The translations under genes and the position numbers were made by a program. DNA of 64,000 nucleotides from a virus: IMG/VR virus record IMGVR_UViG_3300025645_000065, one strand, 5' to 3'. This document shows, in pieces, positions 3,232 to 63,940 of the stretch. Positions within the stretch are counted from its first letter, which is position 1. Every line of letters begins with the position of its first letter. The notes beneath the pieces are model-generated. The model made no database searches and was not told the origin of the DNA. It worked only from the letters and a program-made list of their open reading frames with translations.

Positions 3232-4077
3232 TTAAGTTAAAGTTAGGTCCTCGTAGGATTTTTCCTCTAGGTAGCTGTACCTCTTCTGGCGGGTATATAA
3301 CACTGAAGGAGGTAGAGTCTGATATTTTCCCGACCAGGTTAAAGTTAGAACTTCGGCTGAAGGTATTAGGGAGAGGTTGGTATAGTTTAAGGAGTAGGTT
3401 TCCGTTCCTCTAGGTAGCTGTACCTCTTCTGGCGGGTATATAACACTGAAGGAGGTAGAGTCTGATATTTTCCCGACCAGGTTAAAGTTAGAACTTCGGC
3501 TGAAGGTATTAGGGAGAGGCTGGTATAGTTTAAGGAGTAGGTTTCCGTTTTCAAATCCTACATTAACAGCTAACTGTATTTGATTAGAGCCGAAATCTAA
3601 GTACATGCCTGAAAAGGCAATACTTGTGTTTAGAGTTGTGTTTAGCTGCTCGTAAACTCCTCGTAGTTGTACTGTGTTTAGGGTGCTGCTACTTACTCTA
3701 AGCTCTGTTCTATCGAGTGATATTTCAGATATAAGAAGAGTTGGATTTCCGGTTATTAGCCCGGTTATGAAGTTGTACTGTGTATTGTATCTTCCCTGTG
3801 TATATCCGTTCCCTAAGAGGTCTTTCCCGGGATCTATACTTATAGAAGTTATACCGGATACAGGATTGGTAGTTACTACATTATAAGATGTAGTAAGTCT
3901 TGATATAAACGTATTGTTAAGGTCGTATAGGTACGCTTGTATTATATCGGTAGCGGGATTAAAAGTTCCTCCAACTTCAAAGCTAGTTACATTTGCTCCG
4001 TCTGTAGGAAGTAATGTACTTGTCGTTGTAGTTTCTAACGTATCTACGCCTAGTGCTGTTACTATTGGTTCTGCCAT
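3232..4077 (-). CDS. Tail-fibre N-terminal segment. Its 3' end is frameshifted by a 143-bp tandem duplication.
   Basis: 281 aa. The second repeat copy is read in the +2 frame and gives a stop at 3232. With a single copy the frame reads straight through into the 827..3157 ORF. Confidence 0.5.
   Translation of the reverse strand: MAEPIVTALGVDTLETTTTSTLLPTDGANVTSFEVGGTFNPATDIIQAYLYDLNNTFISRLTTSYNVVTTNPVSGITSISIDPGKDLLGNGYTQGRYNTQYNFITGLITGNPTLLISEISLDRTELRVSSSTLNTVQLRGVYEQLNTTLNTSIAFSGMYLDFGSNQIQLAVNVGFENGNLLLKLYQPLPNTFSRSSNFNLVGKISDSTSFSVIYPPEEVQLPRGTETYSLNYTNLSLIPSAEVLTLTWSGKYQTLPPSVLYTRQKRYSYLEEKSYEDLTLT
3264..3549. repeat. Tandem direct duplication, 2 x 143 bp (3264-3406 and 3407-3549), 1 mismatch
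   Basis: Direct sequence comparison. The only difference is ggttgg versus ggctgg. Confidence 0.9.
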
Positions 4078-13931: not shown

Positions 13932-14598
13932 TTATTGCTTAGGTTCGCCGAATATGACAGCTTTATTGAAGTAAGTAATTGTATTTGCAAGTTGACGAGT
14001 TAATTTCTCATCCCCTAAGCCCTTGGCAGCTTCATAAGCATCTACTAATTTACCGAATATTTCTTTTGAATCTCCGCCTGTTGCTAGATCTACTGGTGCA
14101 TCCATTCCCATATCAGGTTCAGCAGTCATGTCTGCCTCTGGTGCGTCGGTAGGTTCTTCTGCTGTATCTATAGCGATATCTTCTTCATCAGCTTCTCTAA
14201 GGTTCATCTCATCGTTAGGGTCTAAAGACATAAGTCTTTTAGCGATTTCTGAATGAAGGTACTCTGCTACATCAGCGGAATCAAACTCGTCGCCGGATTC
14301 GATCTGATCTCTATAGATCATCTCTGCAGCGTCTAGTAAGCTGTTTAATGCTTCTAAGTTAGTTAGTCCATCTATTCGATGCGGGATCAAACTCGTCGCC
14401 GGATTCGATCTGATCTCTATAGATCATCTCTGCAGCGTCTAGTAAGCTGTTTAATGCTTCTAAGTTGGTTAGTCCATCTATTCGATCAGCAGTTTCAGGA
14501 TCGAGTTGTTCTTTGATTAATGGTTTTTTATACATGTTGTCATAGAACTCTTTTCTAGTCTTCTGTACAAATGCTTGGATGTTGAAATTATCGGACAT
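13932..14598 (-). pseudogene. Hypothetical acidic protein gene split by a 106-bp tandem duplication. ORFs 14359..14598 and 13932..14390 are its two pieces.
   Basis: Both ORFs encode RIDGLTNLEALNSLLDAAEMIYRDQIESGDEFD. Removing one copy restores a single ORF of about 195 aa. Confidence 0.6.
14275..14486. repeat. Tandem direct duplication, 2 x 106 bp (14275-14380 and 14381-14486), 2 mismatches
   Basis: Direct sequence comparison. Confidence 0.9.
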
Positions 14599-20747: not shown

Positions 20748-20801
20748 ATTTTGCGTTCTATTGAAAAAGGAAGTTAGTGCGCCTATACCTGATGTCTTTA
20801 A

Positions 20802-22233: not shown

Positions 22234-22293
22234 AATATTTTTTTCAAAGGTATAAAAATTAATTTACATACACATAACAAAGTGTAAAAAACG

Positions 22294-22617
22294 TTATAAG
22301 CCATTTTGTGACCTAACCTTACGACCAAGTTTTCTATGAATAAAAATACCTAATCTTTCAGGACAAGGAATAGCGATTACACCACGTAAATATGGAAGTA
22401 AAAAAGTAATTCCAATTCCCCAATGTGTATCAATATTGAATGACAACTCAAATTGAAAAGTGTCTAACGACCAAAATGTAAAAAATAACCAACGGAAAGT
22501 AAATCCGCTTGTATTGTGTTCATTTGCTTTTTTAATAGTAATTACAGGTACTAATGGAAATATATTCCTATTGTACCATTTCTCTTTTAGGTAATACCCT
22601 GATGCTGTTTGTGACAT
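22294..22617 (-). CDS. Hypothetical membrane protein
   Basis: 107 aa with hydrophobic segments. Confidence 0.25.
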   Translation of the reverse strand: MSQTASGYYLKEKWYNRNIFPLVPVITIKKANEHNTSGFTFRWLFFTFWSLDTFQFELSFNIDTHWGIGITFLLPYLRGVIAIPCPERLGIFIHRKLGRKVRSQNGL

Positions 22618-23024
22618 TGTTTTTAAATTAAATTGCTATACCAAACCACTAAAAAACGGCTTATAACAGTGGTTTGGCAAAATACCGCCACAAGCCTTTG
22701 TACTATAATTTAACATTCTGCAAGGCGGTACTTCGCCAAGCCGCATCACGTTAGTTGCAATTTGCCCAATCACACACAAACGAACTCGGTATTCTAATAA
22801 ATATTTCGGTTTCGGTAAGTTTTGCACACTTAAACCTTTGAATGGTGCTTGATATTGCCACCCACATAAAAACTGCAACTAACATCGCATATACGACAAT
22901 AGCGGCATTCTCTTTAAATCTAAACTTTTTCATTCTATTTTATTTTTGTTGTTAATTAAACTTTTGCCTTTCAATCCGCTACTGCGTATATGCGTAGCCG
23001 TTAGCAGAAATAATTTTATCCTGC

Positions 23025-23225
23025 CTACGCTCTCCGAACATTATCCCAATTTTCAAGGAATGATACTATCGAACCATATTCACACCATCCGCCACCATTG
23101 GTATCTTCAATTTGAATATACTGGTCGGTTTTGTGGTGAATTATCAATGTGTATTCGCTGTTTGTTTTGTAACCACAAGAGTTATCTAAACCCTTGAAAA
23201 TTGCTTTTACTTTTACTGTTCTCAT
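23025..23225 (-). CDS. Hypothetical small protein
   Basis: 66 aa ORF. Confidence 0.2.
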   Translation of the reverse strand: MRTVKVKAIFKGLDNSCGYKTNSEYTLIIHHKTDQYIQIEDTNGGGWCEYGSIVSFLENWDNVRRA

Positions 23226-23319
23226 TTTGATTTTATTTTAGATTTGTGAAAGCCCAGCCACTAACAGCGGTTTGGCGGCATTAAAACGACCACCAAGCCG
23301 CATCACGTTATAAGCCATT

Positions 23320-23697
23320 TTAGGAGAACGCCAACTTAACAAGTCTATCCTCTTGACTTTGGTATTCTTCTTTCTCTTCAATTTTAGCAATCCAACGAGA
23401 AACATAGCCACCGTCAGTCCAACTTCCACAATCAGTTTCAAAATGAATATCTGTATGGTCATTGTATCTGTATTCTCCACCTTTGTAACCATAGAACGTT
23501 TCCGTATAAGCAAGTTCTATGTTTGCTAAAATTTCTTCTTTTGTCATTGGTTGTTCAAGCATTTTAAATGCTACCTCTGCATATACACCTCTCCAAGAAA
23601 AAGGTTGAGAAATACCAAAGTCAAATTTTGTTCCGTTAGGGAAACTTTCAATGTGTTGTTTAAAATCTTTAAGTTCCATTGTTTTTAAATGTTTCAT
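23320..23697 (-). CDS. Hypothetical protein
   Basis: 125 aa ORF, preceded by motif-2. Confidence 0.3.
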   Translation of the reverse strand: MKHLKTMELKDFKQHIESFPNGTKFDFGISQPFSWRGVYAEVAFKMLEQPMTKEEILANIELAYTETFYGYKGGEYRYNDHTDIHFETDCGSWTDGGYVSRWIAKIEEKEEYQSQEDRLVKLAFS

Positions 23698-23734
23698 CGT
23701 TTAAATATTTTTATTTCTTATTTCCTTATTACTC

Positions 23735-23769
23735 CGTAAATATACGAACAAGGGATTGGGGAACCAACC
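23735..23769 (-). promoter_or_regulatory. Motif-2 (minus strand GGTTGGTTCCCCAATCCCTTGTTCGTATATTTACGG) upstream of 23320..23697
   Basis: One of six copies with a conserved GGGGAACCAAC-like box 8-12 bp upstream of TTCGTATATTTACGG. Confidence 0.4.
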
Positions 23770-23789
23770 AAAGTCGCATTTATTTTTAG

Positions 23790-23948
23790 TGTCAAGGACA
23801 GGATTCGAACCTGTACGATTAGAGTTTTTGCACTTGTTAGTACTATCTTTTAAGCTATCAGCGATATCACCTACACACCTATCTAATCTATAAAACCTAC
23901 TAGCGTCTACCACGTCAGGGGACACCCCTAACCTTCCGCCACCTTGAC
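23790..23948 (-). ncRNA. tRNA-scaffold element, 159 nt (GTCAAGG acceptor variant) with an extra hairpin inserted in the D loop
   Basis: 5' GTCAAGGTGGCGGAAGGTTAGGGGTGTCCCCTGACGTGGTAGACGC ... ACAGGTTCGAATCCTGTCCTTGACA 3'. Confidence 0.3.
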
Positions 23949-24002
23949 ATTTTGCGTTCTATTGAAAAAGGAAGTTAGTGCGCCTATACCTTTTACCTTT
24001 AA

Positions 24003-24212
24003 CTACTCATAGGTTTCTTTATAGTATTGTTCTGCATCTTTATAAGAACCCCAGTCTGAGCAGCCATAATTAACAGAATCAATTTTCTGCTGCTTGTCAA
24101 TTTCTTTGGCTTGGTCAAATATTCCTTCAAATAATACTTCTTGTTCATACGTTAACCCTATATTTATTCGTTCTCGTAACCATTCTACTGCCGTTTGTTT
24201 TTTATTGCTCAT
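24003..24212 (-). CDS. Small protein of the MSNKKQTAVEW...QYYKETYE family
   Basis: 69 aa ORF. Confidence 0.35.
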   Translation of the reverse strand: MSNKKQTAVEWLRERINIGLTYEQEVLFEGIFDQAKEIDKQQKIDSVNYGCSDWGSYKDAEQYYKETYE

Positions 24213-24387
24213 CTTCTATCCGTTGTATTGCTGTTTTTAAGCCTTGTTTAAATCCTCTGTTAAAATAGTCTGCGTTTGCTTTGACTTGCATTGCTTTTGC
24301 TTGGTTAAATATATCTTTCATACTTAAATTAGGTTTTAGCATTTCACTTTCTAACCATTCAACTGCCGTTTGTTTTTTATTGCTCAT
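24202..24387 (-). CDS. Small protein with the MSNKKQTAVEW leader
   Basis: 61 aa ORF. Confidence 0.3.
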   Translation of the reverse strand: MSNKKQTAVEWLESEMLKPNLSMKDIFNQAKAMQVKANADYFNRGFKQGLKTAIQRIEDEQ

Positions 24388-24610
24388 AAGTTTCTATTTC
24401 TTGTTTAACTTCTTGCCAATAGTCATATAAATCATTTGTGTCCATAAATCCAACGTTTAATATTTCATCAACTGCAATCAATGCACATTGTTGAGCATTC
24501 CATAGTTGAATTTCATCGGAGTAAACAAATCCATCTTCAGTTGTTGCTTCGTTTGACGCAAAAACAAAACACATTTCTATTAACTCTTCTGCTTTTTCTT
24601 TTGGTGTCAT
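24377..24610 (-). CDS. Hypothetical small acidic protein
   Basis: 77 aa ORF. Confidence 0.3.
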   Translation of the reverse strand: MTPKEKAEELIEMCFVFASNEATTEDGFVYSDEIQLWNAQQCALIAVDEILNVGFMDTNDLYDYWQEVKQEIETYEQ

Positions 24611-24776
24611 AAATCTATCTGTTCATTAAGTGCCATTATAGCTTCATCAATAGAGCCTTGTTGCTATCCTGCGCACAACATCAAGCTGCTGAAAGTTTTT
24701 AAGACTTGTGTTCCTTCGAAAGTTTCCGATTGTGTTTCAATGGAGTAGGTGTCTCCGTAATGTGTAAGTGTTATTG

Positions 24777-25265
24777 TCATTTGTTTAGTATTTGTTGTGT
24801 TAATTTTAAATCGTTTTGGTTCTCAGGATGTTCAGCAAAACAATGTTCCCAATATTCTTGAACTGCTCGCTTGATAAATTCCACTTCTTCAATTGTGTAT
24901 GTTTTATCAAAGCCTCTGCTTTCTCCATTTGAACTTTTGAAGGTTAGTTCTTTGCCTTGTGAATCGTAGGTATATTCACAACAAGTTCCTTTTGAATTTT
25001 TATAGGTTAATAAATTACCATTTGAATCGTATGTATATTCACAACTATATCCATTTGAATGTTTGTAGGTTAATACCTTACCTTGTGAATCTCTTGTATA
25101 TTTATACCAAGTTCCATCTGAATTTTTATAGGTTAATAAATTACCATTAGAATCTCTGGTGTATTCACAACTATATCCATTTGAATCTTTGTAATACTTA
25201 TAAACTTTGATACCATTCTCATTGAATAGTTCTAAATTCTCTTCTGTTCCTTGTATGTTTTTCAT
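24777..25265 (-). CDS. YD/RHS-like repeat small protein (MKNIQGTEENLELFNENG leader family)
   Basis: 162 aa. Tandem ~21-aa repeats YKNSDG.S.EYTRDSNGK.LT carrying the Y.YD..G.L signature. Confidence 0.4.
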   Translation of the reverse strand: MKNIQGTEENLELFNENGIKVYKYYKDSNGYSCEYTRDSNGNLLTYKNSDGTWYKYTRDSQGKVLTYKHSNGYSCEYTYDSNGNLLTYKNSKGTCCEYTYDSQGKELTFKSSNGESRGFDKTYTIEEVEFIKRAVQEYWEHCFAEHPENQNDLKLTQQILNK

Positions 25266-25738
25266 TGTTTCTTTTTAAATTGTTCAAACCATTCTTGCTC
25301 TTGAATTTCATCACTAAAAGATAAATATTCTTTAAATTCTTTAAGAATTATCAACACCTCTTCAGGTGTGTAGGTTTTATCAAAGCCTCTGCTTACTCCT
25401 TTTGAATTTTTATAGGTTAGTTCCTTACCTTGTGAATCTCTTGTATATTCACAAGTAAATCCATTTGAATCTTTGAAGGTTAATACCTTACCATTTGAAT
25501 CGTACGTGCGTTCATACCAAGTTCCATATGAATCTTTGAAGGTTAATTCCTTACCATTTGAATCGTAGGTGTATTCATACCAATATCCATTTGAATTTTT
25601 ATAGCTTAACTCATTACCGTTTGAATCTCTTGTGTATTCATAGCTATATCCAAATGGATGTTTAAAATACTCATAAACTTGTTTACCATTATCATTGAAT
25701 AGCTCTAAGTTCTCTTCTGTTCCTTGTATGTTTTTCAT
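25262..25738 (-). CDS. YD/RHS-like repeat small protein
   Basis: 158 aa paralog ending WFEQFKKKQ. Confidence 0.4.
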   Translation of the reverse strand: MKNIQGTEENLELFNDNGKQVYEYFKHPFGYSYEYTRDSNGNELSYKNSNGYWYEYTYDSNGKELTFKDSYGTWYERTYDSNGKVLTFKDSNGFTCEYTRDSQGKELTYKNSKGVSRGFDKTYTPEEVLIILKEFKEYLSFSDEIQEQEWFEQFKKKQ

Positions 25739-25740
25739 TG

Positions 25741-26160
25741 TTATTTTTTTATCTTAAAGTTGCCTAATTTGGATACTAACTCCTCCATAGTGTACTCAGG
25801 TATATCAAAGCCTCTGCTTACTCCTTTTGAATTTTTAAAGGTTAGTTCATTGCCATTTGAATCTCTTGTATATTCATACCAAGTTCCTTTTGAATTTTTA
25901 TAGATTAACTCGTTACCCTTTAAATCGTAGGTGTATTCGTAACTAAATCCATTTGAATCTTTGAAGGTTAGTTCCTTACCGTTTGAATCGTATGTACATT
26001 CATAACTAAATCCATTTGAATTTTTGAAGGTTAATACCTTACCTTGTGAATCGTAAGTACATTCTTCACTATATTCATAAGCTTTAAAATACTCATAAAC
26101 TCTTATGCCATTCTCATTGAATAGCTCCAAATTCTCTTTTGTTCCTAATATGTTTTTCAT
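25741..26160 (-). CDS. YD/RHS-like repeat small protein
   Basis: 139 aa paralog ending SRGFDIPEYTMEELVSKLGNFKIKK. Confidence 0.4.
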   Translation of the reverse strand: MKNILGTKENLELFNENGIRVYEYFKAYEYSEECTYDSQGKVLTFKNSNGFSYECTYDSNGKELTFKDSNGFSYEYTYDLKGNELIYKNSKGTWYEYTRDSNGNELTFKNSKGVSRGFDIPEYTMEELVSKLGNFKIKK

Positions 26161-26162
26161 TA

Positions 26163-27011
26163 TTATTTCTTTTTAAATTGTTCAAACCATTGTTCTAAAT
26201 CTACTGTCACTAATGCTGATTGCAAGGCTTCTGAAATAATTAATTTAACTTCTTCCTCACTATACATTCTTTCTTGTTGCCATTCAGTACCTTCTTTAAA
26301 GTTTTGAATTTGTAATAGTTTACTATCTATCCATTGCTGTGTAGGAACTGGTATCATAGCTGTCTTCCTATTGTAATTAGCTTCGGCAGCTTCTTCAAGT
26401 GTTTCTTGTTTAGTTTCTTCTTTTGTCAGTTTAATTGCACAAGGTTCACATTGAACTGCTCTTTTATCTCCTGTAAATTCTATTTTACAAGTTACACAAG
26501 TACACCCATAATGACCCGGAGCATACCCACCAATTGGATATTTTTGTTTAGTTTTTTCTTTTGGAATGATAGTTTTGTGTCTTACTTTTGTATCAACTTC
26601 CCATTCAGATGGTAATAAAACCTCTTTCCATACTCCGTTGTTAGATAAGTATTCTTTCTCAACCTCAACCTCCTCACAACTTGGATTCTTAACAAACCAT
26701 TCTAAGAACTCATCATCAATAGCTTGTACACCATCTTTGATTAAATCTTGGTCTGTTGTTAGAATGATTTGTCTTGGTTTATTGTTACTTATTAAAGCCA
26801 TTGTGTTTTGCCATAACCAAACCCTACCATTATTATAAACCCAAATATTATTTTCAAATCCAGTAATTTCTTCATCAGATGTGATGTAGATGTGTTTTGC
26901 AATATTGGTTGGATGTTGAGAAGGAAATTCATCTAATTCTAATCTTCTTCTTAGATTATTAATCCATAACCTACTTGGTTTGTCTGTTGGAATTACGTGT
27001 ATATTTTTCAT
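26163..27011 (-). CDS. Hypothetical protein with a Cys-rich zinc-ribbon segment. Its C-terminus is shared with the gene at 41787..42500.
   Basis: 282 aa. Contains HYGCTCVTCKIEF...CEPC and a C-terminal EGTEWQQERMYSEE...WFEQFKKK module. Confidence 0.3.
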   Translation of the reverse strand: MKNIHVIPTDKPSRLWINNLRRRLELDEFPSQHPTNIAKHIYITSDEEITGFENNIWVYNNGRVWLWQNTMALISNNKPRQIILTTDQDLIKDGVQAIDDEFLEWFVKNPSCEEVEVEKEYLSNNGVWKEVLLPSEWEVDTKVRHKTIIPKEKTKQKYPIGGYAPGHYGCTCVTCKIEFTGDKRAVQCEPCAIKLTKEETKQETLEEAAEANYNRKTAMIPVPTQQWIDSKLLQIQNFKEGTEWQQERMYSEEEVKLIISEALQSALVTVDLEQWFEQFKKK

Positions 27012-27012
27012 A

Positions 27013-27372
27013 TTATTTTTTTATTTTAAAGTTTCCAATTTTGGATACTAACTCTTCCATAGTGTACTCAGGTATATCAAAGCCTCTGCTTTCTCCATTT
27101 GAATCTTTGTATGTTAATTCATTGCCATTTGAATCTCTTGTATATTCACAACTAAATCCATCTGAATTTTTGGAGGTTAATATCTTACCATTTGAATCTC
27201 TTGTAAATTCATAACTATATCCATCTGAATTTTTATAGGTTAATACCTTACCATTTGAATCTCTTGTATATTCACAACTAAATCCATTTGAATTTTTAAA
27301 ATACTCATAAACTCTTACACCCTCTTGATTGAATAGCTCTAATTTCTCTTCTGTTCCTAATATGTTTTTCAT
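27013..27372 (-). CDS. YD/RHS-like repeat small protein
   Basis: 119 aa paralog, preceded by motif-2. Confidence 0.4.
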   Translation of the reverse strand: MKNILGTEEKLELFNQEGVRVYEYFKNSNGFSCEYTRDSNGKVLTYKNSDGYSYEFTRDSNGKILTSKNSDGFSCEYTRDSNGNELTYKDSNGESRGFDIPEYTMEELVSKIGNFKIKK

Positions 27373-27388
27373 CTTATTTCTTATTACT

Positions 27389-27424
27389 CCGTAAATATAC
27401 GAACAGTATCTTGGGGAGCCAACA
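27389..27424 (-). promoter_or_regulatory. Motif-2 copy upstream of the YD-repeat gene 27013..27372
   Basis: ccgtaaatatacgaacagtatcttggggagccaac. Confidence 0.4.
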
Positions 27425-27430
27425 AAAATC

Positions 27431-27739
27431 TTATTTGTTTTTGTTAAACTCTTTCCAATTATTATAAGTCAAACCCCATTGTAGACTGAACCATTGCATT
27501 TCCTTCTCTGCTTGCTTAGCATACTTGTTTAAGTTTTTCATGAGGTATTTTTTACCCCATTTTTTAAACTCCTCACCTTGCTCAACCGTCATTGTGTACT
27601 TTTGAAACCAATTATCTACACCTACCACATCCTGATACGTAACATCATGACCAGCAATGATAAACATTTGATTGATTAAATCAATAACTGCCTTATCTTG
27701 CTTTTCCTCTCGACTTAATCGTTTACGTTTAACTTGCAT
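27431..27739 (-). CDS. Hypothetical protein
   Basis: 102 aa ORF. Confidence 0.3.
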   Translation of the reverse strand: MQVKRKRLSREEKQDKAVIDLINQMFIIAGHDVTYQDVVGVDNWFQKYTMTVEQGEEFKKWGKKYLMKNLNKYAKQAEKEMQWFSLQWGLTYNNWKEFNKNK

Positions 27740-28068
27740 AATTCGTAATTGCTATTTTCTGTCTTAAATATAATATAATTCTCTCGCTCTTCCACAATCT
27801 CTGTAATGGGGGTACATTGCCAAGTAAAGAATTGATTGAATGGAGACATAAGTAAACTCCTACCAATGGCAGGTTCATCATGTTTAGATTTAAAACGACC
27901 TTCATCGTTAAACTCAATCCACATTATCCTAGCTGATTCTTTTAGTAGATTATCTCGTTCACGAACCAATCTATATTTAGGTTCTTCTGTGTCTAAGTTT
28001 AATTCTAATTTCAACTCACCATCTAAACCTAATGTTACTGGTATTTTAGTTTGTTTTATCTTGCTCAT
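27715..28068 (-). CDS. Hypothetical protein
   Basis: 117 aa ORF. Confidence 0.3.
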   Translation of the reverse strand: MSKIKQTKIPVTLGLDGELKLELNLDTEEPKYRLVRERDNLLKESARIMWIEFNDEGRFKSKHDEPAIGRSLLMSPFNQFFTWQCTPITEIVEERENYIIFKTENSNYELCKLNVND

Positions 28069-28748
28069 ATAATTTCAAATACATTTCCATTACTGCTTAA
28101 TTTACCGAACTTACCATCAGTAACCACAGAACCATTTGAGAATATTGTATCTAGCTCTGGTATTGTTCTAGTACCAGCATTGATAATATCATTGTAATTA
28201 TGGATATGGCCAAACATCACAAATCCAGGATTTACTTCTATAACTCTATTCAATAATGATTTATCCCCACAATGCTCCATACTACCAACTCTATCATAAG
28301 ATAGATCTAACATACCTTTTGGAGGTCCGTGAACAACAATAATATCAACATCTTCATCTATAACATTTCTCCACATTCGTTCTAGTTTATTTCTATCCTT
28401 ATTGAACGACCATCCATATCCAAAAGTTGGGGTGTAGGGTGAACCAAAGATCTTTAAACCCTCTATTTGGATAGTTTCATTTTCAAGATAGTGAATACCA
28501 TGATCTTTAAAATCTGATTTAGTGACAAACCTTTTCTCAATACTAGTATCATGATTACCGGCTACAAATATTTTATGCTGTATAGGTAAATTAGCAAACC
28601 AATCAATAAATGCTCTAACTTCAGGTTCATTACTATAAGGGTCTCTTGGATTGCTACAATCACCACTAAAAATAACCATAGCAACACCTTCAGGTATTTC
28701 TAGTAAGTCATGGAAGGTGTGTGTATCGCTTATATGCCAGATTTTCAT
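28065..28748 (-). CDS. Calcineurin-like metallophosphoesterase
   Basis: 227 aa carrying the MPP motifs GDCSNPRD, GNHD and GHIH. Confidence 0.55.
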   Translation of the reverse strand: MKIWHISDTHTFHDLLEIPEGVAMVIFSGDCSNPRDPYSNEPEVRAFIDWFANLPIQHKIFVAGNHDTSIEKRFVTKSDFKDHGIHYLENETIQIEGLKIFGSPYTPTFGYGWSFNKDRNKLERMWRNVIDEDVDIIVVHGPPKGMLDLSYDRVGSMEHCGDKSLLNRVIEVNPGFVMFGHIHNYNDIINAGTRTIPELDTIFSNGSVVTDGKFGKLSSNGNVFEII

Positions 28749-29167
28749 TTTTTTATTTTAAAGTTACCTAATTTATTAACTAACTCCTCCATTGTGTACT
28801 CGGGTATATCAAAGCCTCTTGTTTCACCATTTGAATCTTTGAATGTTAATTCATTACCTTGTGAATCCCTTGTGTATTCATAACTATATCCATCTGAATT
28901 TTTGTAGTTTAATATATTACCTTTTGAATCGTAAGTGTATTCATAACTATATCCATCTGAATTTTTGAAGGTTAGTACTTTACCATTTGAATCTCTTGTA
29001 TATTCACAACTAAATCCATCTGAATTTTTATAGGTTAGTACATTACCATTTAAATCGTATGTGTAGTCATAACTTACTCCAGATAAATGTTTAAAATACT
29101 CATAAACTTTTATACCCTCTTTAGTAAATAATTCTAATTTCTCTTCTGTTCCTTGTATGTTTTTCAT
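28745..29167 (-). CDS. YD/RHS-like repeat small protein
   Basis: 140 aa paralog. Confidence 0.4.
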   Translation of the reverse strand: MKNIQGTEEKLELFTKEGIKVYEYFKHLSGVSYDYTYDLNGNVLTYKNSDGFSCEYTRDSNGKVLTFKNSDGYSYEYTYDSKGNILNYKNSDGYSYEYTRDSQGNELTFKDSNGETRGFDIPEYTMEELVNKLGNFKIKK

Positions 29168-29168
29168 A

Positions 29169-29528
29169 TTATTTTTTTATTTTAAAATTACCTAATTTAT
29201 TAACTAATTCTTCCATAGTGTACTCAGGTATATCAAAGCCTCTGCTTACACCATCTGAATTTTTGAAGGTTAATTCATTGCCATTTAAATCGTATGTAGC
29301 TTCATAACTAAATCCATCTGAATTTTTATAGGTTAATACCTTACCATTTGAATCTCTTGTAAATTCATAACTATATCCATCTGAATTTTTATAGGTTAAT
29401 ACCTTACCATTTGAATCTCTTGCAAATTCATAACTATATCCATATGAATCTTTGTAATACTCATAAACTCTAATACCATTCTTATTGAATAGGTTTAATT
29501 TGTCTTCTGTTCCTAATATGTTTTTCAT
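29169..29528 (-). CDS. YD/RHS-like repeat small protein
   Basis: 119 aa paralog. Confidence 0.4.
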   Translation of the reverse strand: MKNILGTEDKLNLFNKNGIRVYEYYKDSYGYSYEFARDSNGKVLTYKNSDGYSYEFTRDSNGKVLTYKNSDGFSYEATYDLNGNELTFKNSDGVSRGFDIPEYTMEELVNKLGNFKIKK

Positions 29529-29794
29529 TTTTTAATTTTATTATTTCTTAGTATTCGAATTAAAGTAGTTAAATCAGCAATTTCCCCAAAAGTACAGGTT
29601 TCTGAATCGAATACAGATATTGTCCATCCATGTTTTTCAATTTCATCACTTGCGTTAGATATTAAACAAATATCCCCGATATCGAGTGTATAATAATACC
29701 AACCCTTAGCAGCACCTGAGTTCTTAGCTGTCTCACGTTGAATCTTAAATTTTAATTTAATAAGTTCTTGTTCTGTTATTCCTGTTGTGTTCAT
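29525..29794 (-). CDS. Hypothetical protein
   Basis: 89 aa ORF, preceded by motif-2. Confidence 0.3.
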   Translation of the reverse strand: MNTTGITEQELIKLKFKIQRETAKNSGAAKGWYYYTLDIGDICLISNASDEIEKHGWTISVFDSETCTFGEIADLTTLIRILRNNKIKK

Positions 29795-41786: not shown

Positions 41787-42500
41787 TTATTTCTTTTTAA
41801 ATTGTTCAAACCATTCTTTAAAACTTCCTTTATCCTCACCAATAAACATCATTCCTGCTTCAAAAGCGCTAAGTAAATCTTCCTCACTATACATTCTTTC
41901 AGCTTGCCATTTAGCACCTTCAATAAAATCATTTATTGGATATTCCTTTTCTACTCCCATAGGATATTGCATTTTTACATAGTATTCTGCAGCTTCTTCA
42001 AGTGTGTATGTTTTATCAAACCCTCTGCTTACTCCATCTGAATTTTTGTAGGTTAATTCCTTACCTTGTGAATCTCTTGTATATTCACAACTAAATCCAT
42101 TTGAATTTTTGTAGGTTAGTTCCTTACCGTTTGAATCGTAGGTATATTCAGAATTAACTCCATCTGAATCTTTATAGGTTAATTCCTTACCGTTTGAATC
42201 TCTTGTATATTCATAACTAAATCCATTTGAATTTTTGTAGGTTAATACCTTACCTTGTGAATCATAGGCGTATTCAGAATTAAATCCATCTGAATCTTTA
42301 TAGGTTAATTCCTTACCGTTTGAATCTCTTGTATATTCACAACTAAATCCATCTGAATTTTTATAGGTTAGTTCCTTACCTTGTGAATCGTAGGTATATT
42401 CATAGATATATCCATATGAATTTTTAAAATACTCATAAACTTTGATGCCATTCTCATTGAATAGCTCTAATTTGTCTTCTGTTCCTTGTATGTTTTTCAT
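41787..42500 (-). CDS. YD/RHS-like repeat protein with the shared C-terminal module
   Basis: 237 aa with about 8 YD repeats, ending EGAKWQAERMYSEE...WFEQFKKK. Confidence 0.4.
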   Translation of the reverse strand: MKNIQGTEDKLELFNENGIKVYEYFKNSYGYIYEYTYDSQGKELTYKNSDGFSCEYTRDSNGKELTYKDSDGFNSEYAYDSQGKVLTYKNSNGFSYEYTRDSNGKELTYKDSDGVNSEYTYDSNGKELTYKNSNGFSCEYTRDSQGKELTYKNSDGVSRGFDKTYTLEEAAEYYVKMQYPMGVEKEYPINDFIEGAKWQAERMYSEEDLLSAFEAGMMFIGEDKGSFKEWFEQFKKK

Positions 42501-54954: not shown

Positions 54955-55623
54955 CTAAGGTTCAACTTGTAATAGTTTTTTAAGCTTAGTATAGTATATA
55001 CCGGTTGCTTTAACAGCGGATCTAATACTGGGGTATGTTATGTTCTGATATGTTACTGGGATTGAAGTGTCTGGGGCGGGATGGCTGCTATTCTTCCTGG
55101 CTTCTGATATCTTCTCTCGGGTTTCAGCGGATCTCTTCCTACCCTTATGAAATGTTGATACTTTTTGTTTTTGTTCCTCTGTTAATTTCCGTCCTTTGTT
55201 GGCTTCTGATATTTTATGTCCCCAGGTTACTTTTCTGTTCTTAAGAGTTTCAGAAATTTTCTTTTTGTGCTGTTCTGTAAGTGGCGGCTTCTTTCTTCCT
55301 GTATTCGCTTTTGATATAGCTCTACTTGCAATTACCTTTAATCTTGCGTAGGTTCTTGATGATATATTAAGTCCTTTCTTAGTGCATGCTAGTACCCACA
55401 CAGCATGGTGTAGTCCATCTTCGTAGGGGTATACCTCCAACAACAACAGGTGACATATGTAATGCTCTCTTGCTGTCAGTAACACTAAGTTCTCAGAAGT
55501 ATTGCATCCGCCCATACATTTGGGTATTATGTGGTGTTTCTCATAATAAACACCTTTCCCTTTGCTTCGATTCTCTTTTTGCCCTCTCTCTATGATTTGA
55601 TCATATACTTTCTTGTAATTCAT
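54955..55623 (-). CDS. HNH homing endonuclease with NUMOD3-like DNA-binding repeats
   Basis: 222 aa with YEKHHIIPKCMGGCNTSENLVLLTAREHYICH, followed by repeated GRK..ISEA/ISET motifs. Confidence 0.75.
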   Translation of the reverse strand: MNYKKVYDQIIERGQKENRSKGKGVYYEKHHIIPKCMGGCNTSENLVLLTAREHYICHLLLLEVYPYEDGLHHAVWVLACTKKGLNISSRTYARLKVIASRAISKANTGRKKPPLTEQHKKKISETLKNRKVTWGHKISEANKGRKLTEEQKQKVSTFHKGRKRSAETREKISEARKNSSHPAPDTSIPVTYQNITYPSIRSAVKATGIYYTKLKKLLQVEP

Positions 55624-56245: not shown

Positions 56246-57853
56246 TTAGCCGTAGATTAAGTCTTGACTTTTCTCCTCTGGCTTGTCTGTAAGTTCGTCT
56301 GCTACGACTGCTTCGGTAAGCATTATCGTTCCTGCTACTGATGCTGCATTCTCTAATGCTGTTCTTGTTACTTTAAAAGGGTCTATAATACCTGCTTCTT
56401 TCATATTAACAATCTTTCTATCATGTACATGGTAGCTACTCCAAGGCCCTGCTTCTAAGACTTCTCCTAATACGGTTTCGATTTCCTCTCTCTCGTATCC
56501 TGCATTGCTTAGGATCTTAATAAATGGAGCTTGACAAGCTTCTTGAACAATCATTGCACCTGTTGAGGTTCCGGTTATGTTCATACTTGCATGTAGTAAT
56601 GTTGATCCTCCGCCAGGTACGATTCCTTGCTCGATTGCTGCTCTAGTAGCGTGTAATGAATCCTCTACCCGGTCTTTAGTCTCTTTCATTTCTATTTCAG
56701 AATTACCTCCTACGTGTATGATAGATACTCCTCCTGTAAACTTACCTAATCTTTCTTGAAGCTTTTCAGTCTCGAATGGAGTTTTTGCATTATCGATTTG
56801 AGATCTTAGTTCTGCTATTCTCTGATCGATTGCTTCTGGTGCTCCTTTGCCGTCTATAATGATAGTATTCTCTTTCATTATGTTAGCTTTTCTAGCTTGT
56901 CCGAACCATGCTCTATCTAGCCGAGTGAGCTTCATTCCCTTCTCAGGGCTAATTACTTGCCCGCCTGTTAGTATAGCTATGTCTTCCATTATTAACTTTC
57001 TCCTATCTCCAAAGTCAGGAGCCTTTACTGCAACTACTTTTAAAGTACCTCTCATCTTATTAACGATTAAGGTTGCAAGTGCTTCGTTGTCTATATCCTC
57101 ACATACAATTAATAAAGATTTATTCTCAGAAGATACTGATTCTAATACCGGTAGTAGTTCTTTAGCTTGAGATAGTTTACCGTCGTAGATTAATACGTAA
57201 GGTGAGTCTAGGACTGCTGACATATTACTGTTATCGTTTACGAAGTATGGAGACTTGTAACCTCTATCGAATTGAATGCCTTCTACAGTCTCTAAGTAAG
57301 TCTCTCCTGTTCTAGATTCTTCGATAGTTACAATACCGTCTCTACCTACTGCTTCGAGTGCAGATGTAATAAGGTTACCTACCATCTCATCGTTGTTAGC
57401 AGATACTGTAGCAACTTGCTTAAGCTGGTCTTCTGCTGTTATCTCTTCTGCAATGTTTGCTTTAATATAGGCTATAACTTCTTTAACTGCTTCATCTACT
57501 TCTCTTTTAATCTGTACTGCATTTCCTTTATTATCTAATGCGTTAAGACCTCCTCTAGTAATAGATTGCGCTAGTAGAGTAGAGGTTGTTGTTCCATCCC
57601 CTGCTGTGTTAGCGGTGTTGATTGCAGCCTGCTTAAGCATATCGATTGCTATTGATCTAACTGGATCTTTTAGCTCTATAACTTTTGCTACCGTTACACC
57701 ATCTTTAGTGGACCGTACTTCTCCGGTTTCATCTCTGTACACTACGTTCCGTCCGTTAGGCCCTAATGTGGAGGTTACTGCATTTGCCAGTAAGTCAATA
57801 CCTGCAAGCAGTTGCTTCCTAGCTTCGTTTGAATATTCTATGTGTTTGCTCAT
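56246..57853 (-). CDS. groL: Chaperonin GroEL (Cpn60)
   Basis: 535 aa, full-length similarity to GroEL (AAVEEGIVPGGG, GGG(S/T)). No GGM tail. Confidence 0.9.
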   Translation of the reverse strand: MSKHIEYSNEARKQLLAGIDLLANAVTSTLGPNGRNVVYRDETGEVRSTKDGVTVAKVIELKDPVRSIAIDMLKQAAINTANTAGDGTTTSTLLAQSITRGGLNALDNKGNAVQIKREVDEAVKEVIAYIKANIAEEITAEDQLKQVATVSANNDEMVGNLITSALEAVGRDGIVTIEESRTGETYLETVEGIQFDRGYKSPYFVNDNSNMSAVLDSPYVLIYDGKLSQAKELLPVLESVSSENKSLLIVCEDIDNEALATLIVNKMRGTLKVVAVKAPDFGDRRKLIMEDIAILTGGQVISPEKGMKLTRLDRAWFGQARKANIMKENTIIIDGKGAPEAIDQRIAELRSQIDNAKTPFETEKLQERLGKFTGGVSIIHVGGNSEIEMKETKDRVEDSLHATRAAIEQGIVPGGGSTLLHASMNITGTSTGAMIVQEACQAPFIKILSNAGYEREEIETVLGEVLEAGPWSSYHVHDRKIVNMKEAGIIDPFKVTRTALENAASVAGTIMLTEAVVADELTDKPEEKSQDLIYG

Positions 57854-57856
57854 TGT

Positions 57857-58185
57857 TTAGTCTTCTATTTGTGCTAATATTTGATTCTCCGGTCCGATGA
57901 AGTACTCTTCTCCTCTGTACTCGAATCTAGTGAATCCCATTGTTGGAAGTACTACCCGGTCTCCTTCTTTGAAAAGGGTAGCTACAAAGCCTACTCCTGG
58001 CATATTATTCCCAGGACCTACGCTTACTATTTCTCCCATTTTGTTTTTCTCGCTACCTAAATCCGGAATTCTCCCATTTTGTTTTTCTCGCTACCTAAAT
58101 CCGGAACAATAATGTTACCGTGGTATTCATCCTCTAGCTCTATCGGCTTTACGATAACTGCATTGTAAACTGCTTTTAGTTTCAT
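57857..58185 (-). pseudogene. groS: Co-chaperonin GroES interrupted by a perfect 38-bp tandem duplication (frameshift). ORF 57857..58039 is its C-terminal part.
   Basis: The N-terminal 41 codons starting at 58185 (MKLKAVYNAVIVKP...GSEKNKMGE) hit a stop inside the second repeat copy. Removing one copy gives a 96-aa GroES. Confidence 0.7.
58031..58106. repeat. Tandem direct duplication, 2 x 38 bp (58031-58068 and 58069-58106), identical
   Basis: Direct sequence comparison. Confidence 0.95.
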
Positions 58186-58466
58186 ACTAATTCTATTGAT
58201 TTTAATTTATTTATTGTTGTTGACATTTCTTCTATGTAGGTTTGCAAGCTCTCATAGTTTTGATCTCTGACTGAATCCTCTAATATTAACTCAAAGCATC
58301 GAGCTATATTATAAGTATATCCGAGAGCTACCTCTCGCATATTGCCTGTTTTTCTAGCTGCTGTAGCTTTAAATACTGTATAGCAGTACTGATCCATTTG
58401 GATATGGTACGGAGCTAATTTTGGATCTTTAATAACTTTGTAATTGGTTTTTTTCTTCTCACTCAT
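58182..58466 (-). CDS. Hypothetical protein
   Basis: 94 aa ORF. Confidence 0.3.
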   Translation of the reverse strand: MSEKKKTNYKVIKDPKLAPYHIQMDQYCYTVFKATAARKTGNMREVALGYTYNIARCFELILEDSVRDQNYESLQTYIEEMSTTINKLKSIELV

Positions 58467-58540
58467 ATAACTTTAAGATAGTACCTTTTTAGGTATTTTC
58501 CAACTCTATTATAAATAAAACCTCCGGGCGGGGGTTAAAT

Positions 58541-58957
58541 TTATTTAATTGTAAGGGTTGTTGGTTTACTTGATTCTGCGAAAGGAATATGTACCTGTAG
58601 AAGTCCGTTCTCCATCTCTGCTGATGCTTTTTGGAGATTAAATTTAGGTGCTATCTTATAGCCTAATTCGAAAGAACGTTTAGCGATTCCTTTATGGATG
58701 TAGTTCTTAGGTTCCTCTATAGGCGGTTTAGCGTATCTAAACTTAAGGATGTCTTCGTGAATGTCGATTTGAACATCTGACTTAGTGAGACCAGTACATG
58801 CTATTTCAAAATGCAAGCCTTCTGGATCTTCGTAGATGTCTAATGGATGTGTTGCTTTAGCCTCTGATGTAGGGCTGAATGTGGATGTGGTCTGAAAGAA
58901 ATCTCTAAATAAGATGTCAAACGGACCTGCGTAAGTGTAGTTTGTTTTGTTGTTCAT
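58541..58957 (-). CDS. Small heat-shock protein (Hsp20 / alpha-crystallin domain)
   Basis: 138 aa. The C-terminal segment GLLQVHIP matches an alpha-crystallin-domain beta strand pattern. Confidence 0.45.
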   Translation of the reverse strand: MNNKTNYTYAGPFDILFRDFFQTTSTFSPTSEAKATHPLDIYEDPEGLHFEIACTGLTKSDVQIDIHEDILKFRYAKPPIEEPKNYIHKGIAKRSFELGYKIAPKFNLQKASAEMENGLLQVHIPFAESSKPTTLTIK

Positions 58958-59440: not shown

Positions 59441-59830
59441 TTATTTATTTTTAGCTATTTCTATTAATTTTTTAAGACATTCAAGTTCTGCTTCTTCGTG
59501 CGAATCATAAAACTCAGAGGTGTAAGACTTTTCATCGAATTTTTCAATGTAGAATCTATACTTATCTTTTTTTACCTCTCTAACGTATTGTGTATACCCA
59601 TGCTTCTTTCTAAACCATCCAAATGCTTGTTGGTATAGTGGTGCTTCTATTACAGGAATATTTGTTGAATTATAAACAATATCATTAGATATAAATAAAG
59701 TACTTGCTAAATAATAACCAAAACAAGTTTCATCAAATCCTAATTCTTTTAAATCTAATGCTTGTTCGTAAGGTATAAATTCTTTTTCCATAGTTATTTT
59801 TTTACAATTAATATTAGTTTCTTTAAACAT
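59441..59830 (-). CDS. Hypothetical protein, paralog of 59794..60183
   Basis: Shares EKEFIPY.QAL.LKELGFDETCF, PLYQQAF.WFR.KHG and EEAELECLKKLI with its neighbour. Confidence 0.35.
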   Translation of the reverse strand: MFKETNINCKKITMEKEFIPYEQALDLKELGFDETCFGYYLASTLFISNDIVYNSTNIPVIEAPLYQQAFGWFRKKHGYTQYVREVKKDKYRFYIEKFDEKSYTSEFYDSHEEAELECLKKLIEIAKNK

Positions 59831-60183
59831 TCAAGTTCTGCTTCTTCATAAATTCCATTGTATTTTAAAGGTTCATTTCCAAGTTGTCTATTTCCTTTAT
59901 CATTAAAAACTTGATAAGAAAATTCTTGTGTGCCAATTTCAATTAAACCACTTAATCCATGCTTCTCTCTAAACCATCTAAATGCTTGTTGGTACAGTGG
60001 TGATTCACATTCAAAAGTAACATCATCACCAGCACTTTCAGCTTCTTCGATTTCAGATTCACCTATTTGCATAAAAGGTGTGTTACCATCTTGTTGATAG
60101 TATTTAGCAAAACAAGTTTCATCAAATCCTAATTCTTTTAAAGACAAAGCTTGGTTGTATGGTATAAATTCTTTTTCTGTCAT
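59794..60183 (-). CDS. Hypothetical protein, paralog of 59441..59830
   Basis: Shares the same three motifs. Confidence 0.35.
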   Translation of the reverse strand: MTEKEFIPYNQALSLKELGFDETCFAKYYQQDGNTPFMQIGESEIEEAESAGDDVTFECESPLYQQAFRWFREKHGLSGLIEIGTQEFSYQVFNDKGNRQLGNEPLKYNGIYEEAELECLKKLILIVKK

Positions 60184-63280: not shown

Positions 63281-63940
63281 TTATTTTCTGTATTCTGCTA
63301 TTAATGCATCCGCTCTCTTGACAGCTTCTTCTAAACCTAAAGCATTATCCCCAGGTGTTCCTAAGTCCCCTCCTTCGTATTCTTCATCAGCTCCATGAGC
63401 TATTTTATTATCAAACTCAGTGTAGGCATCTTGTATACTTTGAAGTTCCGGTAGAGCATTTCCTTCATAGTTTTGCTCTAGCCAATGCCCCATTTCTACC
63501 AGTCCTGAATTAATTTTTCCGGTTATTCTATCGTAGTCTTCAGGTAGTACCTTATTCGTCATACTGTAAGGAGCTTCGTTTAGCTCTTCATTAAACATAT
63601 CCGTCATACTGTAAGGAGCTTCGTTTAGCTCTTCACTAAACATATCCTGTATATGGTTTGCAGCTAGTTCTGCTGCTTCGTCTAGTGAGATTCCTGCTGT
63701 ATGTGCTATGTTTTTAACTACCCGCTCTAAGTCCTCTAAAGCTGCATCCATGAATCTATCCTCAGTGACATTTCCTTCCATAGTAGTTACTTTAGCACCT
63801 GCTTTTTCAAGATTAGCCTTATCTGCAGGAGATACTACTTGTGCAGCAGATGTTCCAGATGGGCCGGTTACTTTACTTAAAGTTCCTACCTCTTTTAACA
63901 TTGCCTGGCGTATAACTTCTTTTAGTTCTGCTCTTTTCAT
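63281..63940 (-). CDS. Hypothetical protein with an in-frame 15-aa tandem duplication
   Basis: 219 aa with MFSEELNEAPYSMTD followed by MFNEELNEAPYSMTN. Confidence 0.35.
   Translation of the reverse strand: MKRAELKEVIRQAMLKEVGTLSKVTGPSGTSAAQVVSPADKANLEKAGAKVTTMEGNVTEDRFMDAALEDLERVVKNIAHTAGISLDEAAELAANHIQDMFSEELNEAPYSMTDMFNEELNEAPYSMTNKVLPEDYDRITGKINSGLVEMGHWLEQNYEGNALPELQSIQDAYTEFDNKIAHGADEEYEGGDLGTPGDNALGLEEAVKRADALIAEYRK
63557..63646. repeat. Tandem duplication, 2 x 45 bp, 1 mismatch, in frame
   Basis: Direct sequence comparison. Confidence 0.9.

What the first reader, a model, noticed from the sequence alone, without database searches (positions are those of the whole stretch)
57857..58185. 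GroES co-chaperonin interrupted by a perfect 38-bp tandem duplication
The unit ttctcccattttgtttttctcgctacctaaatccggaa occurs twice back to back, at 58031-68 and 58069-106. The gene starts at ATG 58185 and reads MKLKAVYNAVIVKPIELEDEYHGNIIVPDLGSEKNKMGE. It then shifts frame in the second copy and stops. The GroES C-terminal half, which holds the mobile loop and ends EEYFIGPENQILAQIED, survives only as the 60-aa ORF 57857..58039. A single-copy version gives an intact 96-aa GroES immediately downstream of GroEL. This is the second gene in the window inactivated by an out-of-frame tandem duplication.
Basis: seen in the sequence. Interest (0 to 1): 0.6.

Follow-up and report, generated by a model that had tools for sequence, protein, structure and literature searches.

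The report
Assembly-made duplication splitting phage groES
The 38-base duplication that breaks this phage's GroES co-chaperonin gene is present in the sequence, but it is almost certainly a stitching error of this one assembly, because seven independent assemblies of the same phage have an intact gene.

Summary
A perfect 38-bp x 2 tandem repeat lies at 58031-58106. It splits a minus-strand Cpn10/GroES gene into a 42-aa and a 60-aa ORF, and removing one copy restores a full-length 96-aa GroES.

The biological reading (gene inactivation) is not supported. Seven independent metagenome contigs from seven samples, 99.2-100% identical to the window, all carry the single-copy gene. Two of them match the window's single-copy version base for base. 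The duplication junction is absent from IMG/VR, JGI metagenomes and GTDB genomes.

The window holds three more private tandem duplications (143, 106 and 45 bp), and every near-identical relative that spans them lacks them. In those three, the two copies differ only at sites that are polymorphic in the population. Each copy carries a different natural allele, or a natural haplotype in the 106-bp case. That is the signature of overlapping ends from co-occurring strains being concatenated rather than merged (a false "heterotype" duplication).

groES is under strong purifying selection in the lineage (dN/dS 0.05-0.10). The underlying locus, sHsp-orf94-groES-groEL next to polA, is a known arrangement in Flavobacteriia phages such as Immutovirus.

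Interest is low.

The parts
58031..58068 (-). Copy 1 (low-coordinate copy) of the 38-bp unit. It is the second copy in gene orientation and encodes (V)PDLGSEKNKMGE again, out of frame with the first ORF.
58069..58106 (-). Copy 2 (high-coordinate copy) of the 38-bp unit. It is the first copy in gene orientation and corresponds to nt 80-117 of groES, codons 27-39, the distal half of the mobile loop.
58057..58185 (-). N-terminal groES fragment ORF (42 aa: residues 1-39 plus FRI, then stop). It contains strand 1 and the mobile loop. Its ATG overlaps the stop of the upstream orf94 (ATGA).
   Evidence: Cpn10 profile positions 1-38
57857..58039 (-). C-terminal groES fragment ORF (60 aa, starting at Met37 of the intact protein).
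   Evidence: Cpn10 profile positions 37-93, E=7e-8
58030..58030 (.). Population C/T polymorphism (I40/V40 in GroES) at the base directly flanking the duplication. The window's allele is shared with L039 and L040.
56246..57853 (-). groEL (535 aa, Cpn60_TCP1, E=9e-63), 3 nt downstream of the groES stop.
58182..58466 (-). orf94, a conserved protein of unknown function that appears translationally coupled to groES through a 4-nt ATGA overlap.
58541..58957 (-). Small heat-shock protein (Hsp20/alpha-crystallin family, E=8e-11), the first gene of the chaperone cluster.
3262..3547 (.). Private 143-bp x 2 tandem duplication of the same class. It splits a 1035-aa DUF285 gene into 281 and 776 aa. Its copies carry the two natural alleles at unit position 116, and a private C>T sits at the flanking base 3261.
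14275..14486 (.). Private 106-bp x 2 tandem duplication of the same class. It splits a 186-aa gene. Copy 1 has the L035 haplotype (A..A) and copy 2 has the L031/L032/L036/L037 haplotype (G..G).
63558..63647 (.). Private 45-bp x 2 in-frame tandem duplication of the same class (219 aa against 204 aa in relatives). Copy 1 carries the L002 allele and copy 2 the L001 allele.

Best explanation
The 38-bp duplication is an assembly artefact: a false tandem duplication made when two overlapping sequence ends from a mixed-strain phage population were joined head to tail instead of being merged. The phage's real groES is a single-copy, intact 96-aa gene in an hsp20-orf94-groES-groEL operon. What is shown: the duplication is private to this sequence, the same window has three more private duplications, and in those the two copies carry different natural haplotypes. 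What is inferred: the groES duplication arose by the same process. The likely mechanism is that contigs or reads broke at strain-variable sites, and a scaffolding, merging or long-read layout step then butt-joined ends that overlapped by 38-143 nt.
For: (1) Seven independent contigs from seven samples span the site at 99.2-100% identity, and all are single copy: ENA ERZ27275013, ERZ27275003, ERZ27275031, ERZ27275010; JGI 3300022072, 3300007538; Logan SRR6829918. BLAST HSPs break at 58068/58069 with a 38-nt overlap in the query. L039 and L040 have groES DNA with 0 mismatches to the window's single-copy version. (2) The junction 28-mer is absent from IMG/VR, JGI metagenome contigs and GTDB genomes. 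The truncated 42-aa product is not on record in the gene index. (3) All four roughly 2.0-copy tandem duplications of the window (143, 106, 38 and 45 bp) are absent from every relative that covers them. Across 50 kb covered by at least 3 relatives, the window's only other private differences are one SNP that abuts a duplication (3261) and one homopolymer +T (12060). (4) All four copy-to-copy differences in the other three duplications fall on sites that are polymorphic among relatives. They use the two natural alleles, and in the 106-bp unit they keep natural linkage. The chance that they are post-duplication mutations is about 7e-10. (5) For the 38- and 143-bp duplications a variable C/T site sits exactly at the flanking base, with nothing else different within 40 nt. 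P is about 0.003 given 1% variable sites. This is what is expected if pieces end at graph branch points. (6) Short-read contigs of other samples end at or near two of the duplication sites: 8 nt from the boundary of the 143-bp unit, and 32-50 nt from the 45-bp duplication. All 30-odd short-read contigs are at most 22.6 kb, whereas the window is at least 64 kb. (7) There is no microhomology at the borders, which argues against replication slippage. (8) groES is under strong purifying selection (dN/dS 0.05-0.10 against relatives at 79-96% aa identity). It is intact in all 18 related loci where a homologue was detected by tblastn. Both fragments in the window are still identical to the intact gene. 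(9) The artefact class is documented: false heterotype duplications, in which both alleles are laid side by side (Ko et al. 2022, PMC9516828).
Against: No raw reads or assembly metadata for the window's source were available, so the artefact is inferred rather than observed. The 38-bp unit contains no polymorphic site among the 7 relatives. The direct two-haplotype proof available for the other three duplications therefore cannot be applied to this one. L039 is identical to the window for about 2 kb on both sides, so no haplotype switch is required at this junction. The duplication lengths (38, 45, 106, 143) do not fit one k-mer size, so the exact software step is not identified. IMG/VR holds few very close relatives, so those negative scans have limited power.
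Confidence: 0.86

Rival explanations
1. The duplication is real but private. A recent 38-bp tandem duplication arose in one phage lineage or genome, knocking out groES by frameshift. It would be a young loss-of-function variant, possibly tolerated because host GroES can serve the phage GroEL.
For: The duplication is perfect and both fragments are undecayed, as expected for a very recent event. The haplotype around it (L039-like) is continuous across the site, so nothing forces a chimeric join here. Tandem duplications do arise spontaneously in phage genomes (general knowledge).
Against: It is absent from 7 of 7 independent near-identical contigs and from all collections scanned. It sits in a window with three other private duplications that are demonstrably two-haplotype joins. 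Together these would also destroy a 1035-aa DUF285 structural-type protein and a 186-aa protein, which is implausible for a genome abundant enough to assemble. There is no border microhomology. The boundary coincides exactly with a population SNP. The gene is under strong purifying selection.
Confidence: 0.12
2. The duplication is real and the gene is still functional. One route is a +1 shift at AUU-UAG-G, giving a 109-aa GroES with a 13-residue insertion at the base of the mobile loop. The other is termination at 58057 followed by re-initiation 17 nt downstream at ATG 58039, giving two fragments that complement each other.
For: This rests on sequence geometry only. The 0-frame stop is preceded by AUU, so AUU UAG G resembles the RF2-type CUU UGA C +1 site. 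The +1 frame continues LGSEKNKMGEIVS..., which is the GroES frame. The ATG of the 60-aa ORF lies 17 nt after the stop.
Against: There is no conservation, because the arrangement exists in no other sequence. tRNA-Ile re-pairing on UUU is poor, and no Shine-Dalgarno-like stimulator sits at the RF2-type spacing (reading plus general knowledge). All the evidence for an artefact applies here too.
Confidence: 0.02

Closest known systems
False 'heterotype' duplications in genome assemblies (Ko et al. 2022, Genome Biol 23:205, PMC9516828)
   Same: Two allelic versions of one stretch are laid side by side in the assembly and create false gene disruptions or gains. In the window, three of the four duplications carry two natural alleles or haplotypes in their two copies. 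All four are absent from independent assemblies.
   Different: Here the 'haplotypes' are co-occurring phage strains in a metagenome, not the two chromosomes of a diploid. The units are very short (38-143 bp) and there is no N-gap between the copies. Read-depth and read-pair criteria could not be tested.
GroES-GroEL gene pairs of Flavobacteriia phages (Flavobacterium phage vB_FspM_immuto, genus Immutovirus, MW353176; Maribacter phage Panino, PMC11590407)
   Same: The family-A DNA polymerase, groES, groEL order is the same. GroES shares 46% aa identity with immuto GroES. The protein is about 96-101 aa and immediately precedes groEL.
   Different: In the window's phage five small ORFs, an Hsp20 gene and orf94 lie between polA and groES. 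There is no nucleotide-level similarity to any INPHARED phage.
Bacterial GroES / Cpn10 (PF00166; solved structures 3nx6, 1aon)
   Same: The single-copy protein aligns over its full length (residues 1-94) with solved GroES. It has a hydrophobic tripeptide (IIV 25-27) at the position of the E. coli mobile-loop IVL, and a conserved GE(I/V)xxVG strand.
   Different: It is phage-encoded and only about 30-37% identical to cellular GroES in tblastn/phmmer comparisons. No biochemical data exist.
Phage T4 gp31 / RB49 CocO (phage-encoded GroES substitutes)
   Same: These are phage-encoded co-chaperonins that work with a GroEL ring (general knowledge).
   Different: T4 gp31 has no detectable sequence similarity to GroES and uses host GroEL (general knowledge). 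The present gene is a bona fide Cpn10 family member and is paired with a phage GroEL.

Membership tests
Cpn10 / GroES (PF00166) | Full-length match to the Cpn10 profile above the curated cut-off | tested here: met
   The single-copy reconstruction scores 58.4 bits (cut-off 21.1) over profile positions 1-93 of 93. As it stands in the window, the gene is split into fragments covering positions 1-38 (18 bits, below cut-off) and 37-93 (32.8 bits).
Cpn10 / GroES (PF00166) | Mobile loop with a hydrophobic tripeptide that contacts GroEL | tested here: met
   Alignment to solved GroES chains places IIV (residues 25-27) at the position of the GroEL-binding tripeptide. The loop ELEDEYHGNIIVPDLGSEKNK is invariant or nearly so in relatives down to 79% identity. 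The assignment of loop residues rests on published E. coli GroES structures (general knowledge).
Cpn10 / GroES (PF00166) | Genomic pairing with a cpn60/groEL gene in one operon | tested here: met
   The groES stop is 3 nt before the groEL ATG. The same pairing is seen in all 18 related loci where a GroES homologue was found and in Immutovirus.
Cpn10 / GroES (PF00166) | Heptameric lid that binds GroEL and supports folding | not testable with these tools
   This needs biochemistry. No structure prediction was run because the question here was whether the disruption is real.
False heterotype (two-haplotype) assembly duplication | Duplication absent from independent assemblies of the same genome or population | tested here: met
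   7 of 7 contigs for the 38-bp duplication, and 6, 6-8 and 2 contigs for the 143-, 106- and 45-bp duplications.
False heterotype (two-haplotype) assembly duplication | The two copies carry different alleles that both exist in the population | tested here: inconclusive
   Met for the 143-, 106- and 45-bp duplications: 4 of 4 differences lie on polymorphic sites with natural alleles. The test is uninformative for the 38-bp groES unit, which has no polymorphic site among the 7 relatives. The nearest variable site, 58030, abuts it.
False heterotype (two-haplotype) assembly duplication | Reduced read depth or discordant read pairs over the copies, and the junction unsupported by reads | not testable with these tools
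   No reads and no provenance are available for the window.
Replication-slippage / microhomology-mediated tandem duplication (a real mutation) | Short direct repeat (microhomology) at the unit borders | tested here: not met
   The period-38 identity run is exactly 2 x 38 nt, and the bases before and after do not extend it.
Replication-slippage / microhomology-mediated tandem duplication (a real mutation) | Variant recoverable from independent samples or reads | tested here: not met
   The junction is absent from IMG/VR, JGI metagenome contigs, GTDB genomes and the gene index.

The most novel reading that the evidence does not exclude
The duplication is a genuine variant, and the phage still makes a working co-chaperonin from it. 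This could be a loop-extended 109-aa GroES made by +1 frameshifting at AUU-UAG-G. It could also be a two-piece GroES made by termination and re-initiation 17 nt downstream, with the duplicated 12 residues serving as the overlap.
Probability: 0.02. Interest if true: 0.6.

Novelty: not a real feature. Interest (0 to 1): 0.07.

Why it matters
The main value is as a caution. Taken at face value, this window suggests a phage that carries a chaperonin operon with a dead co-chaperonin, a broken DUF285 protein and a third broken gene (186 aa, no family assigned). That picture would invite stories about pseudogenisation or recoding. Comparison with the population shows that all of these breaks are private to one assembly and bear the marks of strain-chimeric joins. 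The window's source contig should be treated as containing at least four join errors and one homopolymer error. The groES, DUF285 and 186-aa genes should be annotated from their single-copy forms. The biology that remains is an intact Hsp20-orf94-GroES-GroEL module under purifying selection in an abundant aquatic phage related to those of Flavobacteriia. This is real, but phage GroES-GroEL pairs of this kind are already described.

Tried and rejected
(1) Megablast of the groES-groEL region against INPHARED phages found no match, so no annotated close relative exists there. Only protein-level hits were found.

(2) I first thought the A/G difference at 58030, the only mismatch to L004 in 7.5 kb and directly abutting the duplication, was a mutation created together with the duplication. 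I rejected this. P0001, L039 and L040 show it is a natural allele present in single-copy genes.

(3) The copy junction forms GAATTC (an EcoRI site), which suggested a cloning artefact. The other three junctions have no restriction-site pattern, so I treat it as coincidence.

(4) I tested whether the duplication length equals k or k-1 of a de Bruijn assembler. 38 would fit k=39, but 45, 106 and 143 do not fit a single k, so the exact software step remains unidentified.

(5) A look-up of the 776-aa and 42-aa window ORFs by exact sequence found nothing. The source contig is not in the gene index, so its provenance could not be established.

(6) Scans of IMG/VR for the other three junctions and for the 3261-T allele were negative. 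Their power is low because IMG/VR holds few relatives above 97% identity.

(7) A haplotype switch exactly at the groES duplication is compatible with the data (L004-type on the high side, L039/L040 allele at 58030). It is not required, because L039 matches both sides.

Full report
1. THE OBSERVATION

Tandem Repeats Finder reports 58031-58106 as period 38, 2.0 copies, 100% matches. A direct comparison shows the two 38-mers are identical. The period-38 identity run is exactly 76 nt, so no flanking base extends it.

The gene is on the minus strand. ATG 58185 opens MKLKAVYNAVIVKPIELEDEYHGNIIVPDLGSEKNKMGE. The frame continues FRI and stops, giving a 42-aa ORF at 58057-58185. A 60-aa ORF (57857-58039) starts at what would be Met37 and ends ...EEYFIGPENQILAQIED. 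Removing one copy gives a 291-nt ORF. Its 96-aa product matches Pfam Cpn10 over the whole profile (1-93 of 93, 58.4 bits, E=7e-16) and aligns over residues 1-94 with solved GroES chains such as 3nx6 and 1aon.

Three descriptive points are wrong.
- groES is upstream of groEL in the direction of transcription. The groES stop is at 57857-57859, followed by a 3-nt spacer and the groEL ATG at 57853.
- The mobile loop, with the hydrophobic tripeptide IIV at 25-27, lies in the N-terminal fragment. The duplicated codons 27-39 are its distal half plus the start of the next strand (loop position from published GroES structures, general knowledge).
- The window contains three out-of-frame tandem duplications, not two, plus one in-frame duplication.

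2. THE SAME PHAGE IN OTHER SAMPLES

The window's GroEL (535 aa) occurs with exactly the same sequence on five contigs from five samples: ENA ERZ27275013, ERZ27275003 and ERZ27275031, JGI 3300022072, and Logan SRR6829918. On each, a 96-aa Cpn10 gene was called immediately upstream. These contigs are 99.2-100% identical to the window. Their BLAST alignments break exactly at 58068/58069, with a 38-nt overlap in the query, so each holds one copy.

A protein search with the reconstructed GroES returned P0001, 96 aa and 100% identical. Its contigs are L039 (ENA ERZ27275010) and L040 (JGI 3300007538). Both carry a single-copy groES whose DNA has no mismatch to the window's single-copy version. That makes seven of seven independent contigs single copy.

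The junction 28-mer is absent from IMG/VR, the JGI metagenome contigs and the GTDB genome contigs. The 42-aa truncated product is not on record in the gene index.

More distant relatives in IMG/VR (GroEL 57-97% identical) all have an uninterrupted GroES of about 96 aa just upstream of GroEL. groES evolves under strong purifying selection: dN/dS is 0.05-0.10 against relatives at 79-96% amino-acid identity. The duplicated peptide VPDLGSEKNKMGE is invariant among them.

3. THE REST OF THE WINDOW

TRF lists three more high-identity, roughly 2.0-copy duplications: 3262-3549 (143 bp), 14275-14486 (106 bp) and 63553-63647 (45 bp).

I fetched 32 near-identical contigs (98-100%), which cover 57.6 kb of the window. 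Every contig that spans one of these sites has a single copy. The effects are:
- The 143-bp duplication splits a 1035-aa DUF285 protein into 281 and 776 aa.
- The 106-bp duplication splits a 186-aa protein.
- The 45-bp duplication adds 15 residues to a 204-aa protein.

Over the 50 kb covered by at least three relatives, the window's only other private differences are one SNP at 3261, directly abutting the 143-bp duplication, and one extra T in a T-run at 12060. That extra T frameshifts the last 11 residues of a 255-aa protein. Everything else in the window is a mosaic of alleles seen in other samples.

4. THE TWO-HAPLOTYPE SIGNATURE

The copies of the three imperfect duplications differ at four positions in all. 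Each of these positions is polymorphic among the relatives, and the two copies carry the two natural alleles.
- In the 143-bp unit, copy 1 has T (as in L023, L024 and L027) and copy 2 has C (as in L022 and L026).
- In the 106-bp unit, copy 1 has the A..A haplotype of L035 and copy 2 has the G..G haplotype of L031, L032, L036 and L037.
- In the 45-bp unit, copy 1 has the L002 allele and copy 2 has the L001 allele.

If these were mutations acquired after a real duplication, the chance that they would hit exactly those sites with exactly those alleles is about 7e-10. The copies therefore come from two different strains.

For the 38- and 143-bp duplications, a C/T variable site sits exactly at the base flanking the low-coordinate boundary, and nothing else differs within 40 nt. 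With 1.0% of sites variable, two such hits among eight boundary positions has P of about 0.003.

Contigs from other samples also end at these places. JGI Ga0196889_1000434 ends 8 nt past the 143-bp unit. L003 and L040 start 32-50 nt from the 45-bp duplication.

All short-read contigs of this phage are at most 22.6 kb, while the window is at least 64 kb. None of the four duplications has border microhomology of the kind that replication slippage leaves.

5. INTERPRETATION

The pattern is that of false duplications made at joins. The assembly of a mixed-strain population breaks at variable sites, the resulting ends overlap by tens of bases, and a later step butts them together without collapsing the overlap. 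That step could be scaffolding with a zero or negative gap, contig merging, long-read layout or local reassembly.

This is the metagenomic counterpart of the "heterotype false duplications" described for diploid genomes, where both alleles are placed side by side (Ko et al. 2022, PMC9516828).

The 38-bp groES unit has no polymorphic site among the seven relatives. Its perfect identity is therefore expected under either model, and the direct two-haplotype proof cannot be applied to it. Assigning it to the same class is an inference. It rests on four things: the duplication is private, it sits among three demonstrable join artefacts, its boundary coincides with a population SNP, and the alternative is implausible. 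I put this at about 0.86.

6. RIVALS

A real, very recent duplication in one genome cannot be excluded without reads (about 0.12). The haplotype of L039 is continuous across the site, so nothing forces a join here.

Such a genome would also carry a broken 1035-aa DUF285 protein and a broken 186-aa protein, yet be abundant enough to assemble into a contig of at least 64 kb. That is unlikely.

A functional recoded or split GroES is possible only on paper (about 0.02). One route is +1 frameshifting at AUU UAG G. The other is re-initiation at the ATG 17 nt after the stop. The arrangement exists in no other sequence.

7. THE UNDERLYING LOCUS AND ITS NOVELTY

The real locus is a chaperone module on the minus strand:
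- Hsp20 (58957-58541)
- orf94 (58466-58182)
- groES (single-copy form, 96 aa; its start overlaps the orf94 stop as ATGA)
- groEL (57853-56246)

It lies downstream of a family-A DNA polymerase (63198-60856).

Flavobacterium phage vB_FspM_immuto (genus Immutovirus) has the same polA-groES-groEL order, with GroES 46% identical. Maribacter phage Panino is also reported to encode GroES and GroEL homologues (PMC11590407). The intact locus is thus a new member of a known kind. The disruption that prompted the finding is not a biological feature.

8. WHAT WOULD SETTLE IT

Read mapping or junction k-mer counting in the source data would settle it, as would PCR across 57990-58140 (151 bp with the duplication, 113 bp without).

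Noticed in passing
window 3262-3547 (flanking SNP at 3261): A private 143-bp tandem duplication splits a 1035-aa DUF285 protein, intact in 6+ near-identical contigs, into ORFs of 281 and 776 aa. The two copies carry the two natural alleles at unit position 116. A private C>T sits at the flanking base 3261.
   Followed up: yes
window 14275-14486: A private 106-bp tandem duplication splits a 186-aa gene. Copy 1 and copy 2 carry two different natural two-SNP haplotypes.
   Followed up: yes
window 63553-63647: A private in-frame 45-bp duplication adds 15 residues to a 204-aa protein of unknown function. The copies carry the L002 and L001 alleles. Two short-read contigs from other samples begin 32-50 nt away.
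   Followed up: yes
window 12058-12060: One extra T in a T-run, relative to 8 of 8 near-identical contigs. It frameshifts the last 11 residues of a 255-aa protein. It looks like a homopolymer sequencing or polishing error and hints at the technology behind the source assembly.
   Followed up: partly
window 56246-58957, minus strand: The phage carries a complete chaperone module, Hsp20-orf94-GroES-GroEL. The orf94 stop and groES start overlap as ATGA, and 3 nt separate groES from groEL. The conserved orf94 has no family match and may be a further chaperone-module component.
   Followed up: partly
window 24880-29530 and 42033-42426: Long arrays with a 63-bp (21-aa) period lie inside a run of small minus-strand ORFs. 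One of these ORFs matches Pfam RHS_repeat. The 42-kb array varies in copy number between strains (237 aa against 195 aa in L048).
   Followed up: partly
window 59441-60183, minus strand: Two overlapping paralogous 129-aa ORFs, with about 85% identical segments, form a variable spot. Relatives have 129+116 aa, a single 117 aa, or 129+129 aa here, with clustered SNPs.
   Followed up: no
window 54955-55623, minus strand: A 222-aa ORF with weak HNH and NUMOD3 motifs (a homing-endonuclease-like gene) lies about 600 nt downstream of groEL. It is present in all close relatives.
   Followed up: no
window 20032-26390: This is the only part of the window not covered by any of the 32 near-identical contigs fetched, so private errors there were not assessed.
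   Followed up: no
window 58066-58071: The junction of the two 38-bp copies creates a GAATTC (EcoRI) site. The other three duplication junctions show no such pattern, so I regard it as coincidence.
   Followed up: yes
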